Below, piece after piece: positions 21,419 through 25,336 of a DNA stretch of 64,000 bases; positions within the stretch are counted from its first letter, which is position 1, and the number at the start of each line of letters is the position of its first letter. The translations under genes and the position numbers were made by a program. The notes under the pieces were generated by a model, which searched no databases, was not told the origin of the DNA, and saw nothing but the letters and a program-made list of their open reading frames with translations. The stretch comes from Candidatus Poseidoniales archaeon (lineage in GTDB: Archaea > Thermoplasmatota > Poseidoniia > MGIII > CG-Epi1), in the NCBI GenBank assembly GCA_045567955.1, contig JBJLBX010000013.1:2226-66225 (forward strand). The letters are read 5' to 3'.

Positions 21419-21610
21419 CTAATGAGCGTGCATATCATTTCCACAGCACATTGGAGATTTAATCTTTCCACAACCACCAGGACATTTTGAAACGTCTACG
21501 GTTGAACCATCATCCTTAGTGAGTGTAGCGTGGACTAATTCTTTACCACATGCTCCACAATTCATTGCTGCAACTGACATGTCACAATTATGACAAACGT
21601 ATTTTCCCAT
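21419..21610 (-). CDS. small cysteine-rich (probable metal-binding) protein
   Basis: 63 aa with 8 Cys arranged as CxxC, CxxC, CPGGC and CC, and a C-terminal MHAH. It is the last gene of the minus-strand elp3 cluster. Confidence 0.55.
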   Translation of the reverse strand: MGKYVCHNCDMSVAAMNCGACGKELVHATLTKDDGSTVDVSKCPGGCGKIKSPMCCGNDMHAH

Positions 21611-21643
21611 ATTTATTCAGTAAGATGCTTACTTATAAAATAG

Positions 21644-22576
21644 TCATACCTTTTTTTTTGCAATCAAACTATCTAAATATCTCTTCTTTAATTTGAATCC
21701 ATTCATTTTGGTCAATTTTGTAATTGCTTTATCAAAACTACTTCCATATTGTGCTCCCTTTTTTTTGCGTTCCGAAGCTTCTTTTGGGACTCCGAGATCT
21801 TTAGCAATTTCTCTCAAAATTTTTTTGTTTGAGTTTGAGTCTATTTTTTTATCAGTAGGTAGACTCATTGCTAAAATTATGAGTTTATCGTCAATATAAG
21901 GACTAACAATTTCTTTTCGCATACTATCAGATATCAATTTATCCCTTGAAATTACAAGATTATTCATACGTTTTAATCCTTCCCAACTCTCTTCCTGAAG
22001 TCCTTTGATATCAATACCTCTCCATGTACCTCTTTCACTAACTGATTTTACATGTCTTTGATAGCCTGCAAATAATTCTTCAGCCCCAATTCCACTGTAA
22101 AAGATTTTTTCATCACCTAAACTCATTGCAGCAAGTAAAACAGCAGAAACAGATACTTTAACCATATATTCAATATAATTATCGTCACGAATTATGGGGT
22201 TTGGTAGTATTTTTATAACTTTCAATAATAATTGTTCAATCTCATCTAGTTCAAATTCCTTGGTAATTAGTTCTAATTTTAAAATACGGGCAATTTCTTT
22301 GGAAACTTTAAGATCTTCTGAGCCTTTAATTCCAACACAAAAACATCTAAATGGAGCTTCTTGTTCTTTACATATTTTGGCAATAATGGATGAATCTACC
22401 CCTCCAGACAGAAGAATTCCAAATGGTTCTTTAGGTAAATCTCTTATTATTGATGTTTTTAGAGCTGTAGTAATATTCTGTTTTGTCCCAATAATATTTT
22501 CAATATTCTGAAGGGTTTCAATATGCTTAATCCAGTTTGTCTCAGAGATAGGAAGTTCAATTTGTAAGTTAGGCAT
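21644..22576 (-). CDS. asparagine-synthetase-like PP-loop adenylating enzyme (synthetase domain only, no glutaminase domain)
   Basis: PP-loop LLSGGVDSS, GIGAEELFAGYQRH and the C-terminal KKILREIA...KKKGAQYGS pattern of the Asn_synthase domain. 310 aa, so there is no N-terminal Ntn (Cys1) domain. Confidence 0.75.
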   Translation of the reverse strand: MPNLQIELPISETNWIKHIETLQNIENIIGTKQNITTALKTSIIRDLPKEPFGILLSGGVDSSIIAKICKEQEAPFRCFCVGIKGSEDLKVSKEIARILKLELITKEFELDEIEQLLLKVIKILPNPIIRDDNYIEYMVKVSVSAVLLAAMSLGDEKIFYSGIGAEELFAGYQRHVKSVSERGTWRGIDIKGLQEESWEGLKRMNNLVISRDKLISDSMRKEIVSPYIDDKLIILAMSLPTDKKIDSNSNKKILREIAKDLGVPKEASERKKKGAQYGSSFDKAITKLTKMNGFKLKKRYLDSLIAKKKV

Positions 22577-22579
22577 TTC

Positions 22580-24079
22580 TTATGCCAAATCTTTGACCAT
22601 ATAATATTCGTTTAGTTCATATCCTAATTTTTCATAGTATAATCTTGTTCCAGGTCCATGTGTAACTCTAATTTTAGAGTAGGATTTGGATTTTTCTTCA
22701 GCTATTTTCATTAATTTACTTCCTAGTCCCATGTGTTGTACTCCCGTCCCTGTTTTTCCAATATTGGCAGCCTGACCAGTAACTTTTAGTTCTCTAACGG
22801 TCGCATTATCATCTAATCTTAATCTTAGATATGCTAAAAGTTTTTCACCCGATTCATAAGAGATAAAGTATTCAGTACCTCCACTTGATTTATATTCGAT
22901 TTCTTTTAGTTCAGCAGTTTTAGGATCTATTTGGGCTCTCCAAAGTTCTCTACAATTAATACATCTACATTTTTTCCCTCGAGCCTTCAATTCTCTTCTT
23001 GCATATTGTCGTAAGTTTGAGTTCATTACTCCAGCTATAATTTGGGGTTTTGGAATATCTCTTTGAATCCTCTGAATTCGAACATATGGGGGCACAATTT
23101 CTTTAAGACTAGCTATCAGATTTGCTGCAGTTTCAGTATCATATGGTACAAAATCGCCAGGGTTACGAGATAAAGGCGAACCTTTTACGAGAAGAGTTGG
23201 GTATAATTTCAGCATATCTGGTTGGAAATCTTCTTCTTCAAATAATCTTTTAAAATCTCTGAGATCAGTTTCAGGAGTCATTCCAGGCAATCCTGGCATC
23301 ATATGGTAAACCACTTTGAATCCTGCCTCTTTCAATAATTTCGTTGCCTTAATAACGTCATCAACAGACTGTTGTCGATTTAATTTATCATGTACTCCAT
23401 CATCTAGACATTGTACTCCAATTTCTACTCTTGTGGCGCCCTGTTTTCTCATTTGAAATACAGTCCATGGAGTACACTCCGTTGGTCGTGTCTCCATTGT
23501 CAGAGCTACACATTTATGTTTTGCACCTCCATTAACTTGTAATGCTTCTTCTAATGGTAATTCTTTACCATTAAGAGTGGCAAAAGCCCCTTTTAGAAAT
23601 TCATCTTGATAATCAGGCGTTCTTGCAGTAAATGTTCCACCCATTATGATTATTTCAACTTTGTCTGTAGGATGTCCATTTCTGACGTATTGTTCAAGGC
23701 GTGACTCTACCTGTGATCTAGAATTATAGTTGTGACGTCTACCTCTTCGAGCAGCAGGTTCATGGCCAGTATATGATTGTGGACTTTCATTTGTAGGGCC
23801 TCCTGGACAATAGGTACAAGTTCCATGCGGGCAAGGGGCTGGAGACGTCATTATTGCTACGGGTGTTACTCCTGCACTAGTTCGCATTGGTTTTACACGT
23901 AATAACTTAGCTAATTCAGGTTCTTTCTTTGCATCTATCTTTGCAAGGAGTTGGTTATTTGGCGGAATACTTGCAAATTTCCCTTCACGGGCAACTTCCA
24001 ATTTAATTAATTGAATTTCTTGTCTAGTTTTAGGCTCTTTCTCTAAAAGGCGATTGACCACTAATTGAGCTTCTTCCAT
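22580..24079 (-). CDS. elp3: Elp3-type radical-SAM / GNAT tRNA uridine(34) carboxymethyl-forming enzyme
   Basis: Radical-SAM cluster motif CPHGTCTYCPGG and a C-terminal GNAT region (GLGSKLMKIAEE). 499 aa. Confidence 0.9.
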   Translation of the reverse strand: MEEAQLVVNRLLEKEPKTRQEIQLIKLEVAREGKFASIPPNNQLLAKIDAKKEPELAKLLRVKPMRTSAGVTPVAIMTSPAPCPHGTCTYCPGGPTNESPQSYTGHEPAARRGRRHNYNSRSQVESRLEQYVRNGHPTDKVEIIIMGGTFTARTPDYQDEFLKGAFATLNGKELPLEEALQVNGGAKHKCVALTMETRPTECTPWTVFQMRKQGATRVEIGVQCLDDGVHDKLNRQQSVDDVIKATKLLKEAGFKVVYHMMPGLPGMTPETDLRDFKRLFEEEDFQPDMLKLYPTLLVKGSPLSRNPGDFVPYDTETAANLIASLKEIVPPYVRIQRIQRDIPKPQIIAGVMNSNLRQYARRELKARGKKCRCINCRELWRAQIDPKTAELKEIEYKSSGGTEYFISYESGEKLLAYLRLRLDDNATVRELKVTGQAANIGKTGTGVQHMGLGSKLMKIAEEKSKSYSKIRVTHGPGTRLYYEKLGYELNEYYMVKDLA

Positions 24080-24081
24080 AT

Positions 24082-25179
24082 TCAGTAAAGCTCCTTTTCA
24101 GCTTTAGTTAAAATGGTTGGGTTCTTCCCATTTACGAGTACATCATCTTCAATACGTATCCCTCCTTTGTCGGGGATGTATATTCCCGGTTCAATAGTAA
24201 CTGCCATTGAATCTTTTATAATTGTTTTTGATTTATATGTTAAAGATGGAAATTCATGTATTTCTAGTCCAAAACCATGCCCAGTTCCATGTACAAAGTT
24301 TCCACCATATCCTTTCTTCTGTATAAATTTTCTTCCAGCATTGTCTACTTTATGACTAGTATTTTCTACAGTAAGTTGTTCAGTAGAAAGTCTATTTGCT
24401 TCTAAAACGATATTATATATTTCAGCCCATTTTTTTGAAGGTTCACCTCCAACAAAATAAGTTCTTGTAATATCAGAACAATATCCCTCCCAAAACACCC
24501 CGAAATCACATATCACAGGATCTCCAATTTTCAATTGACGATTTGTGTTAGAATGATGTGAATGAGCTGCATTTGGTCCCGAAGCAATTATTGTTGTAAA
24601 TGAATTTTCCTGAATACCTCTTCGGCCCATGAAATAATCAATTTCCACTCTGACTTCTTTTTCAGTTAAATTTTTTCCTGATTCTACAAGGTTCTTAGCG
24701 AAATCCTGTCCTGCATCTGACTGTTTGATGGCTTTCTTTATTCTTTCCAATTCATCATTCGTTTTTACGCCTCTCATCTCAGTTACAAAAGGGCTTGCAG
24801 TGGATTTTAGACTCCTTCCTAATTTTATTTTGTTATCCACATATATTTTTCCGATATTATTTTCTTTAAGTGTATTCTTTAGAACTTCGATTGACGTTTT
24901 TCCATCAGATTTAATATCAGGGTAGTGAGTCCATGATTTGATTTCATCTATTGCTGATTCTTTTCGACAACGGTGTTCTTCTAATGAAGATGTAATAGCA
25001 ATTGGGTCTCCTTTTTTTGGTATAATTACATAATTCATTGTTGAACCAGGAGGGCAACCAGGCGGAGCCTCAGAATTTCCTAAATATCGGGTGTTCCCAG
25101 GTAATGATGCAACGAAAGCGTCTCTATCATCTAAATTCGAGCGAATATGCTCCCACCTTCTTTTATAATTAATTTTCAT
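24082..25179 (-). CDS. M24-family Xaa-Pro aminopeptidase/dipeptidase
   Basis: Pita-bread metal-ligand pattern: CDFGVFWEGYCSDITRT, HGTGHGFGLEIHE, IEPGIY and RIEDDV. Confidence 0.85.
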   Translation of the reverse strand: MKINYKRRWEHIRSNLDDRDAFVASLPGNTRYLGNSEAPPGCPPGSTMNYVIIPKKGDPIAITSSLEEHRCRKESAIDEIKSWTHYPDIKSDGKTSIEVLKNTLKENNIGKIYVDNKIKLGRSLKSTASPFVTEMRGVKTNDELERIKKAIKQSDAGQDFAKNLVESGKNLTEKEVRVEIDYFMGRRGIQENSFTTIIASGPNAAHSHHSNTNRQLKIGDPVICDFGVFWEGYCSDITRTYFVGGEPSKKWAEIYNIVLEANRLSTEQLTVENTSHKVDNAGRKFIQKKGYGGNFVHGTGHGFGLEIHEFPSLTYKSKTIIKDSMAVTIEPGIYIPDKGGIRIEDDVLVNGKNPTILTKAEKELY

Positions 25180-25336
25180 TTTTCTCCATCATTGATGCAG
25201 CCATTGCATATCCTGGTAATATGTTACCTAAAAATAGTAAACTGGCTATAATATAGTGTTCTTTGGAAATGAAAGCGATTACACAAGATATTACTATAAT
25301 GTACATCAAATATATGTAAATTCTAGTTATATTCAT
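25169..25336 (-). CDS. possible 55-aa two-TM micro-protein (not in ORF track)
   Basis: Hand translation gives MNITRIYIYLMYIIVISCVIAFISKEHYIIASLLFLGNILPGYAMAASMMEKNEN. Its ATG overlaps the upstream stop (TAATG) and its 3' end overlaps the pepQ-like start by 11 nt. Confidence 0.3.
   Translation of the reverse strand: MNITRIYIYLMYIIVISCVIAFISKEHYIIASLLFLGNILPGYAMAASMMEKNEN

What the first reader, a model, noticed from the sequence alone, without database searches (positions are those of the whole stretch)
21419..25336. elp3 operon with a glutaminase-less asparagine-synthetase-like enzyme: candidate amidation step after cm5U formation
On the minus strand the M24 peptidase gene (25179-24082), elp3 (24079-22580) and an AsnB-like gene (22576-21644) are separated by only 2-3 nt. 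A small Cys-rich gene follows after 33 nt. Elp3 is established to install the carboxymethyl group on U34 (cm5U). To my knowledge, the enzyme that amidates cm5U to ncm5U has not been identified in any domain. The neighbour contains only the PP-loop synthetase domain of asparagine synthetase (LLSGGVDSS, GIGAEELFAGY). That chemistry adenylates a carboxylate and replaces it with an amide, which is exactly what a cm5U-to-ncm5U step needs. The functional link is inferred from operon structure and chemistry only.
Basis: inference. Interest (0 to 1): 0.6.

Follow-up and report, generated by a model that had tools for sequence, protein, structure and literature searches.

The report
AsnB-like amide-forming enzyme beside elp3
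A marine archaeon carries a short ATP-using, amide-forming enzyme right after the tRNA-modifying gene elp3; it is a credible but unproven candidate for the missing enzyme that amidates the tRNA wobble base cm5U, and across its wider family the firmer gene link is to the diphthamide enzyme Dph6.

Summary
On the minus strand, an M24 peptidase gene, elp3, a 310-aa glutaminase-less Asn_synthase (PP-loop) gene and a 63-aa Cys-rich gene lie 2, 3 and 33 nt apart.

The elp3 adjacency is narrow. It occurs in only part of one Marine Group III genus. Five sister genomes and a sister genus carry an unrelated 92-95-aa gene in the same slot.

The enzyme nests inside a stand-alone clade of DPANN archaea, where the family is near-core (262/301 genomes). 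There it is next to elp3 in 1 of 69 loci, but near or fused to Dph6 in 13 of 69. That fusion was published in 2012 and its function was left open.

The ATP/adenylation residues are kept, but AsnB's Glu348 and Lys376 are replaced, so it is not an asparagine synthetase.

Its distribution fits an Elp3 link:
- 255 of 262 carriers have Elp3.
- At least three or four DPANN lineages, plus all sampled MGII, lack both genes yet keep Dph6.

My best reading is ammonia-dependent amidation of cm5U34 (confidence about 0.35). The rivals are a Dph6-linked role or some other carboxylate substrate.

The scan has noted the same pairing on other DNA, including bacteria. I could not test those notes here.

The parts
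21644..22576 (-). AsnBL1: 310-aa stand-alone Asn_synthase-type PP-loop ATP-pyrophosphatase (amidoligase) with no glutaminase domain
   Evidence: PF00733 at 117 bits; TIGR01536 at 110 bits, far below its 267 cut-off. AlphaFold model pLDDT 88.6, best fold match the E. coli AsnB synthetase domain. PP-loop, K429, K449, E352 and Y357 equivalents are kept; E348 is Ile, K376 is Gly, D384 is Val. dN/dS 0.14-0.19. pI 9.2.
22580..24079 (-). elp3: radical-SAM/GNAT tRNA U34 carboxymethylating enzyme
   Evidence: TIGR01211 at 542 bits (cut-off 350); PF04055, PF16199, PF23613 and GNAT hits. 87-98% identical across the genus.
24082..25179 (-). M24-family Xaa-Pro dipeptidase-like gene, 2 nt upstream of elp3
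   Evidence: PF00557 at 201.7 bits. The M24-elp3 pair is conserved in three MGIII genera.
21419..21610 (-). 63-aa, 8-Cys small protein gene downstream of AsnBL1
   Evidence: ORF, no Pfam or NCBIfam hit. Conserved at 70-97% in the genus in both locus types.
21633..21640 (-). TATA-like box TTTTATAA, 23-30 nt upstream of the ATG of the 63-aa gene
   Evidence: Read directly. The same TTATTTTATAAG string precedes the gene in genomes without AsnBL1. Promoter function is inferred.

Best explanation
AsnBL1 is an active, ammonia-dependent acyl-adenylate-forming amidoligase of the Glu348-less AsnB-like family, which is near-core in DPANN archaea. A sub-lineage of one MGIII genus acquired it from a DPANN-like source. 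There it replaced a 92-aa gene in the slot immediately after elp3 and is probably co-transcribed with elp3. Proposed mechanism: Elp3 makes cm5U34 on tRNA. AsnBL1 binds the anticodon loop through its basic surface and tail, adenylates the cm5 carboxylate with ATP via the PP-loop and the K429/K449 equivalents, and free NH3 displaces AMP to give ncm5U. A second ATP-dependent dehydration to the archaeal nitrile cnm5U, as QueC does, is possible. What is shown: gene order, domain content, retained and replaced residues, phylogeny and distribution. What is inferred: the substrate, the ammonia source and every catalytic step.
For: The 3-nt spacing after elp3 is kept in all 11 same-genus loci first examined and in 11 more from species genomes. 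ATP/adenylate residues are invariant across 186 family members, while AsnB's Glu348 and Lys376 are replaced. The gene is under purifying selection. The protein is basic (pI 9.2, last 60 residues net +13) against a window median pI of 5.9. Distribution: 255 of 262 DPANN carriers have Elp3. Thirteen of 20 Elp3-less genomes also lack the family (2.6 expected), and 10 of those 13 keep Dph6. On a marker tree the genomes lacking both fall in at least 3-4 places, while genomes with the family but no detected Elp3 are scattered singletons. MGII lacks both Elp3 and the family (0/70) but has Dph6 in 51/51. Published precedent: the phage AsnB homologue CmoY ligates an amine to the 5-carboxymethyl group of cytosine in DNA (PMC12783734). 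No enzyme for ncm5U or cnm5U formation appears in the searched literature.
Against: The adjacency is confined to part of one genus. Five same-genus genomes and genus g13 have a 92-95-aa gene in the slot instead, so the slot may simply tolerate insertions. Among 69 loci of the nearest relatives, only one has Elp3 within 10 kb. No same-contig neighbours were seen in the listed places of the DPANN sample. The family's recurrent partner is Dph6: 13 of 69 loci, and 30 of 32 longer homologues are GATase-AsnBL-Dph6 fusions with no Elp3 fusion. Many Elp3-bearing lineages lack the family (f15 0/38, f18 0/15, f28 0/13). Elp3 is so common in archaea that co-occurrence is a weak test, and related genomes are not independent. 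There is no recognisable RNA-binding domain. The tRNA modifications of these uncultured organisms are unknown.
Confidence: 0.35

Rival explanations
1. The family works with Dph6 in diphthamide synthesis on elongation factor 2, either as a partner that helps the amidation or by performing a second reaction on the same protein. On this reading its place after elp3 in MGIII is incidental.
For: GATase-AsnBL-Dph6 fusions make up 30 of 32 longer homologues. Dph6 is fused or within about 3 kb in 13 of 69 DPANN loci, including stand-alone forms. Further adjacent pairs are visible in the sample listings. The fusion was published in PMC3541065. The in-genome paralogue AsnBL2 sits two genes from dph2.
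Against: MGIII AsnBL1 belongs to the stand-alone clade, not the fused clade, and is not near any dph gene. The genome has its own Dph6 on another contig. Dph6 works without the family in all MGII (51/51 against 0/70) and in 34 of 39 family-less DPANN genomes. The invariant PP-loop argues for a reaction of its own, and diphthine offers only one carboxylate, which Dph6 already handles (established pathway knowledge).
Confidence: 0.25
2. It amidates some other carboxylate that is still unknown: a different RNA or protein modification, or a metabolite. It landed after elp3 because that slot tolerates foreign genes.
For: The slot is variable (AsnBL1 or orf92, mutually exclusive). The gene was probably acquired horizontally and evolves 4-6 times faster than elp3. 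The D384 equivalent changed from Asp (DPANN) to Val in MGIII. Neighbours across the family are diverse: DUF371, DRG GTPase, PUA proteins, aIF5B, gatCAB, GluRS, Mur-ligase-like and Pcc1.
Against: Near-core status in tiny DPANN genomes that lack most biosynthesis (262/301) points to an information-processing role. Loss of the family tracks loss of Elp3. No other orphan amidation in archaeal translation is known to me (own knowledge).
Confidence: 0.3
3. It is an ammonia-dependent asparagine synthetase making free asparagine.
For: Best sequence and fold matches are the AsnB/ASNS synthetase domains. Databases annotate it this way.
Against: It scores 110 bits against the 267-bit cut-off of TIGR01536. 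Glu348, which from my knowledge of the AsnB literature is needed for beta-aspartyl-AMP formation, is Ile here and Leu or Gln across the family; K376 and D384 are also replaced. The family is retained in DPANN genomes, which generally lack amino-acid biosynthesis (own knowledge).
Confidence: 0.05

Closest known systems
Asparagine synthetase B / human ASNS, C-terminal synthetase domain (PF00733; PDB 1CT9, 6GQ3)
   Same: Same fold (Foldseek E 1e-11, TM 0.67 on the query). Same PP-loop SGGxDS, and the K429, K449, E352 and Y357 equivalents, so the same ATP-dependent acyl-adenylate chemistry.
   Different: No N-terminal glutaminase domain. Glu348 is Ile, Lys376 is Gly and Asp384 is Val. It is far below the equivalog cut-offs. 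It has a basic surface and tail.
AsnB-DUF71 (GAT-II + Asn_Synthase_B_C + Dph6) fusion proteins of Methanohalophilus, Methanosalsum and DPANN (de Crecy-Lagard et al. 2012, PMC3541065)
   Same: Same Glu348-less AsnB-like sequence family (35-41% identity, profile E about 1e-100). What the AsnB-like PP-loop domain does was left open in that paper's review.
   Different: AsnBL1 is stand-alone, with no glutaminase and no Dph6 domain. It belongs to a separate stand-alone clade (SH-aLRT 86) and sits next to elp3, not dph6.
Phage CmoY (asparagine-synthetase homologue of the CmoA-CmoX-CmoY system, PMC12783734)
   Same: An AsnB-family ligase shown to act on the 5-carboxymethyl group of a pyrimidine in a nucleic acid. 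That is the chemistry proposed here.
   Different: CmoY acts on DNA cytosine and, in the tested case, adds glycine. No sequence match to phage records was found at E 1e-5 apart from four Listeria phage fragments, so it is a precedent for the mechanism, not a relative.
QueC (7-cyano-7-deazaguanine synthase)
   Same: A PP-loop enzyme that turns a carboxylate into an amide and then a nitrile using NH3 and two ATP (established knowledge). It is a model for a possible cm5U to ncm5U to cnm5U route.
   Different: Only a marginal hit (TIGR00364, 16.9 bits against a 150 cut-off). QueC acts on a free base, not on tRNA.

Membership tests
Glutamine-hydrolysing asparagine synthetase (AsnB/ASNS) | N-terminal class II (Ntn) glutaminase domain | tested here: not met
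   The alignment starts at AsnB position about 197, and there is no GATase_6 or GATase_7 hit.
Glutamine-hydrolysing asparagine synthetase (AsnB/ASNS) | Score above the curated equivalog cut-off (TIGR01536, NF006949) | tested here: not met
   109.9 bits against 267.1, and 92.5 bits against 499.
Glutamine-hydrolysing asparagine synthetase (AsnB/ASNS) | Catalytic Glu348 and aspartate-side residues Lys376, Asp384 and Arg387 (the roles are recalled from the AsnB literature) | tested here: not met
   Ile, Gly, Val and Arg at these positions in all 9 MGIII sequences. Glu348 is Leu, Ile or Gln in the whole family.
Asn_synthase / PP-loop ATP-pyrophosphatase superfamily (PF00733) | PP-loop SGGxDS plus the pyrophosphate/adenylate lysines (K429, K449) and the fold | tested here: met
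   PF00733 at 117 bits (cut-off 21). Motif residues are invariant. The fold matches 1CT9.
AsnB-DUF71 (Dph6) fusion proteins | One polypeptide with GAT-II, AsnB-like and PF01902 domains | tested here: not met
   The 310-aa protein holds only the middle module. Dph6 is a separate 224-aa gene at G000:C18. It is related by sequence but lies in a different clade.
Diphthine-ammonia ligase Dph6 (PF01902) | Match to the Diphthami_syn_2 profile | tested here: not met
   AsnBL1 has no PF01902 hit. One source's 'diphthine-ammonia ligase' name for a homologue is not backed by any domain match.
QueC-type nitrile-forming PP-loop enzymes | Score above the TIGR00364 cut-off | tested here: not met
   16.9 bits against 150.3.
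tRNA-modifying PP-loop enzymes (TilS, TtuA/NcsA, MnmA, ThiI) | Family profile match, Cys/Fe-S or zinc-finger motifs, and an RNA-binding domain | tested here: not met
   No profile hit. Only weak fold matches to TtuA (TM 0.27-0.29). RNA binding itself is not testable with these tools.
Elp3 (for the neighbouring gene) | Radical-SAM Cys motif, Radical_SAM_C, a GNAT domain, and a TIGR01211 score above cut-off | tested here: met
   542 bits against 350. The CPHGTCTYCPGG motif is seen in the translation.
cm5U-amidating enzyme (hypothetical activity, no defined family) | ATP- and NH3-dependent conversion of cm5U34-tRNA to ncm5U | not testable with these tools
   This needs biochemistry or nucleoside mass spectrometry.

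The most novel reading that the evidence does not exclude
The Glu348-less, stand-alone AsnB-like family of DPANN and MGIII archaea (and, according to untested earlier scan notes, of Elp3-bearing bacteria) is the long-missing enzyme that amidates Elp3-made cm5U34 to ncm5U, and perhaps dehydrates it further to the archaeal nitrile cnm5U. Its frequent fusion to Dph6 would then be a double amidase serving two translation-machinery modifications, sometimes sharing one glutaminase.
Probability: 0.33. Interest if true: 0.85.

Novelty: new variant of a known kind. Interest (0 to 1): 0.55.

Why it matters
The step that turns cm5U into ncm5U at the tRNA wobble position has no known enzyme in any domain of life, although Elongator-dependent modifications are heavily studied and linked to disease. 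A small, soluble-looking candidate with the right chemistry makes the question directly testable, using cm5U-tRNA, ATP, ammonium and mass spectrometry. It would also answer a question left open in 2012: what the AsnB-like domain fused to Dph6 does. If the Dph6-linked reading is right instead, archaeal diphthamide synthesis has an unrecognised component. This window adds three things: a horizontally acquired copy that inserted exactly behind elp3, repeated joint loss with Elp3, and a caution that the slot is variable.

Tried and rejected
1. Complex prediction of the genome's own Dph6 with AsnBL1 gave no verdict (score 0.00). It counts neither for nor against binding.
2. I searched for Elp3-AsnBL fusion proteins. 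None of the 32 longer AsnBL homologues or the 17 Elp3 proteins over 875 aa is such a fusion. The tool itself rates this as weak evidence.
3. Dph6 replacement is rejected. The genome has a canonical Dph6.
4. I tested whether the roughly 320-nt 'spacer' in AsnBL1-less genomes is a decayed copy. It is not: it encodes a conserved 92-aa ORF.
5. A Trm9-like methyltransferase beside a Woesearchaeal homologue turned out to be GSMT-like and convergent, so I dropped it.
6. A search of phage records for CmoY-like relatives found only four weak Listeria phage fragments.
7. RNA evidence is weak. Contigs from marine RNA libraries of three studies cover parts of M24, elp3 and the 5' half of asnBL1, and one 151-nt contig spans the elp3/asnBL1 junction (22522-22672). 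Contigs cannot show a transcript, and DNA may be present in those libraries. The uncovered 3' half and the Cys-rich gene say nothing either way.
8. Context look-ups for seven more distant homologues found no elp3 neighbour.
9. Earlier scan notes claim that bacterial (CPR) Elp3 is regularly paired with such an enzyme.
10. Literature searches for Pcc1-AsnB fusions and for PP-loop neighbours of Elp3 found nothing relevant.
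Full report
**Observation**

The region contains, on the minus strand:
- an M24 peptidase gene (25179-24082);
- elp3 (24079-22580);
- a 310-aa gene (22576-21644);
- a 63-aa, eight-cysteine gene (21610-21419).

The spacers are 2, 3 and 33 nt.

Elp3 is unambiguous: TIGR01211 at 542 bits against a 350 cut-off, with radical-SAM, Radical_SAM_C, ELP3_N and GNAT parts. 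The 310-aa protein, called AsnBL1 here, matches only the synthetase half of asparagine synthetase. It scores 117 bits on PF00733, aligns to AsnB positions about 197-458, and has no glutaminase domain.

An AlphaFold model (pLDDT 88.6) matches the E. coli and human asparagine synthetase C-domains best. Carbapenam synthetase and beta-lactam synthetase follow.

The 33-nt spacer before the small Cys-rich gene holds a TATA-like TTTTATAA, 23-30 nt upstream of its ATG. The same string is conserved in genomes that lack AsnBL1. That gene therefore probably has its own promoter.

**Organism and gene copies**

The genome is a 0.99-Mb, 76%-complete assembly. By the kinship labels of the genome searches it belongs to the class that also holds MGII, within Thermoplasmatota.

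It has two Asn_synthase-domain genes:
- AsnBL1.
- A 32%-identical paralogue, AsnBL2, on another contig. AsnBL2 carries a C-terminal Pcc1 (KEOPS) domain and lies in the order dph2 - TBP - asnBL2/pcc1.

A canonical Dph6 is encoded elsewhere. AsnBL1 is therefore not a Dph6 substitute.

**How far the elp3 adjacency extends**

Within the genus, the order elp3 - asnBL1 - Cys63, followed by a convergent McrB-like gene, is kept in every locus that carries AsnBL1. AsnBL1 diverges much faster than its neighbour: 58-92% identity against 87-98% for Elp3. It is still under purifying selection, with dN/dS 0.14-0.19 against 0.025-0.045 for elp3.

Five same-genus genomes (G002, G005, G008, G014, G024) lack AsnBL1. 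Where the full locus is assembled, they carry an unrelated, conserved 92-aa ORF in exactly the same slot, and the two slot occupants never occur together. A homologous 95-aa ORF directly follows elp3 in sister genus g13. Genus g14 has neither.

The ancestral MGIII arrangement was therefore most likely M24 - elp3 - orf92, and AsnBL1 displaced orf92 in one sub-lineage.

**Where AsnBL1 came from**

A search of 1.84 billion representative proteins found its nearest non-MGIII relatives at 35-45% identity. In species genomes these belong to Woesearchaeota and Nanoarchaeota, that is, DPANN.

In a maximum-likelihood tree of 186 domain sequences:
- the MGIII clade nests among stand-alone DPANN proteins (SH-aLRT 84-89);
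- both lie inside a 93-member, almost purely stand-alone clade (SH-aLRT 86);
- the other Thermoplasmatota homologues, including AsnBL2, form a separate clade (SH-aLRT 99);
- the glutaminase-bearing and Dph6-fused forms also lie outside the stand-alone clade.

Horizontal acquisition from a DPANN-like donor is the simplest reading. I did not test the direction of transfer.

**Genomic associations across the family**

Among 69 DPANN loci with up to 10 kb of flank, only one (L126) has elp3 nearby. Thirteen have dph6 fused or within about 3 kb.

Thirty of the 32 longer homologues are GATase + AsnB-like + Dph6 fusions, and none is fused to Elp3. This fusion was described by de Crecy-Lagard et al. 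in 2012 (PMC3541065). They proposed that the glutaminase feeds both PP-loop domains. A reviewer's question about what the AsnB-like domain catalyses was left open.

Other recurrent or notable neighbours are mostly linked to translation:
- DUF371;
- an 82-aa protein;
- a DRG GTPase;
- PUA proteins;
- aIF5B;
- gatCAB;
- GluRS;
- in other Thermoplasmatota, a Mur-ligase-like gene.

**Distribution**

In 301 Thermoplasmatota genomes, Elp3 is present in 229. It was found in none of the 70 sampled MGII genomes. AsnB-like homologues occur in 104 genomes, and 103 of those have Elp3. The exception is a full-length 665-aa AsnB-type hit. Several Elp3-bearing families have no homologue. MGII keeps Dph6 in 51 of 51 genomes.

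In 301 DPANN genomes the family is near-core: 262 carry it, against 281 with Elp3 and 293 with Dph6.

| DPANN genomes (n = 301) | Family present | Family absent |
|---|---|---|
| Elp3 present | 255 | 26 |
| Elp3 absent | 7 (2 weak hits) | 13 |

- Expected number lacking both under independence: 2.6.
- Odds ratio 18, Fisher p 2e-8. This overstates the case because related genomes are not independent.
- Ten of the 13 genomes lacking both keep Dph6, so incompleteness does not explain them.
- On a single-marker tree they fall in at least three or four places. Genomes with the family but no detected Elp3 are scattered singletons.
- In two of those places, the sister genomes had already lost the family while keeping Elp3.

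The pattern therefore fits 'the family is dispensable, but is not kept without Elp3'. It does not prove dependence.

**Active site**

I mapped the family onto E. coli AsnB. The residue roles come from my knowledge of the AsnB literature.

| AsnB position | State in the family |
|---|---|
| PP-loop, K429, K449, E352, Y357 | conserved |
| D351 | kept acidic (Asp or Glu) |
| Glu348 | Ile (MGIII), Leu (DPANN), Gln (other Thermoplasmatota) |
| Lys376 | Gly or Asp |
| Asp384 | Asp in DPANN, Val in MGIII |

Glu348 is needed for beta-aspartyl-AMP formation in AsnB. The enzyme should therefore still adenylate a carboxylate, but not that of aspartate.

AsnBL1 is basic (pI 9.2, last 60 residues net +13) in a window whose ORFs have a median pI of 5.9. 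This is compatible with nucleic-acid binding but not specific to it.

**Literature**

- No paper in the searchable library mentions both ncm5U and asparagine synthetase.
- A 2023 review describes Trm9/Trm112 for the methyl ester, but its passages on ncm5U name no enzyme for the amide.
- The nitrile cnm5U is reported at U34 in several Euryarchaeota. The passages I searched name no Elp3-linked or other biosynthetic enzyme for it.
- A 2025 paper shows that a phage asparagine-synthetase homologue, CmoY, ligates glycine to the 5-carboxymethyl group of cytosine in DNA. It predicts ammonia-using relatives (PMC12783734). This is a direct chemical precedent for an AsnB-type enzyme acting on a cm5-pyrimidine. 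CmoY is not a detectable sequence relative of AsnBL1.

**Weighing the readings**

For the cm5U-amidase reading:
- the chemistry fits;
- it is the only orphan amidation I know of in the archaeal translation machinery;
- a newly acquired copy inserted and was retained directly behind elp3;
- the distribution tracks Elp3;
- the protein is basic;
- CmoY provides a precedent.

Against it:
- the adjacency is a single evolutionary event in a variable slot;
- the family-wide physical link is to Dph6, not Elp3.

The Dph6 link has its own weaknesses. Dph6 is found without the family in all sampled MGII genomes and in most DPANN genomes that lack the family. The conserved PP-loop also implies a reaction of the family's own.

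My estimates:

| Reading | Probability |
|---|---|
| tRNA cm5U amidation | about 0.35 |
| Dph6/EF2-linked role | about 0.25 |
| Another substrate | about 0.30 |
| True asparagine synthesis | about 0.05 |

**Earlier notes of this scan**

Earlier notes record the same elp3/AsnB-like pairing in other MGIII genomes, in a small archaeal genome and, according to several follow-ups, regularly in CPR and other bacteria. If the bacterial claim is correct, it would be independent support and would raise my odds substantially.

Noticed in passing
L142:2594-2872 (+); also L144:3000-3275, L143:1215-1490 (-), L047:84-359 (-), L050:2991-3278: A conserved 92-95-aa ORF (P0302) with no Pfam or NCBIfam family fills the slot between elp3 and the Cys-rich gene in five same-genus genomes and directly follows elp3 in genus g13. 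It never occurs together with AsnBL1. Atlas look-alikes are 92-94-aa bacterial hypothetical proteins.
   Followed up: partly
G000 contig C20 (L002:1435-2361): The paralogue AsnBL2 is a PP-loop Asn_synthase domain fused to a C-terminal Pcc1 (KEOPS) domain (PF09341, 24-27 bits). It lies in the order dph2 - TBP - asnBL2/pcc1 - MazG-like. The fusion is conserved in three MGIII genera, each of which also has a separate 76-81-aa Pcc1.
   Followed up: partly
L025:2279-3568 and 11 other Thermoplasmatota loci (L020-L046): In 12 of 26 Thermoplasmatota loci, the AsnBL2-type gene is followed on the same strand by a Mur-ligase-like gene (PF08245 + PF02875). The pairing recalls MurT/GatD-type amidation modules, here in wall-less archaea.
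   Followed up: no
L151/L152:5001-8728: A 263-aa stand-alone AsnB-like gene sits directly upstream of what looks like gatC-gatA-gatB (the tRNA-dependent amidotransferase) in one archaeal lineage.
   Followed up: no
Thermoplasmatota genome sample: Elp3 was not found in any of 70 MGII genomes (families f3 and f4, all at least 90% complete). It is present in essentially all other Thermoplasmatota sampled, including MGIII. Dph6 is kept in MGII.
   Followed up: partly
window 24082-25179 with 22580-24079; L048, L049, L050: The M24 Xaa-Pro-dipeptidase-like gene is tightly coupled to elp3 (2-5 nt) in three MGIII genera. This pair is more widely conserved than the elp3-AsnBL1 pair. No functional reason is apparent.
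   Followed up: no
DPANN genomes G355, G359, G361, G368, G369, G351: Some DPANN elp3 open frames are 660-780 aa long, and the Elp3 profile matches them in two or three pieces within one frame. This suggests large insertions, possibly inteins, near profile positions about 176 and about 390.
   Followed up: no
L067:6145-6531, L070:3634-3894, L072:12279-13376 and relatives: Stand-alone DPANN AsnB-like genes recur beside a DUF371 gene, an 82-aa gene of no family and a convergent DRG-type GTPase (24 loci each of 69), with PUA-domain genes and aIF5B nearby.
   Followed up: partly
window 21419-21610: The 63-aa, eight-Cys protein is 70-97% conserved, keeps its own TATA-like box, and stays next to the elp3 locus whichever gene fills the slot. 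A rubredoxin-like electron donor for the radical-SAM enzyme, analogous to eukaryotic Kti11/Dph3, is an untested idea.
   Followed up: no
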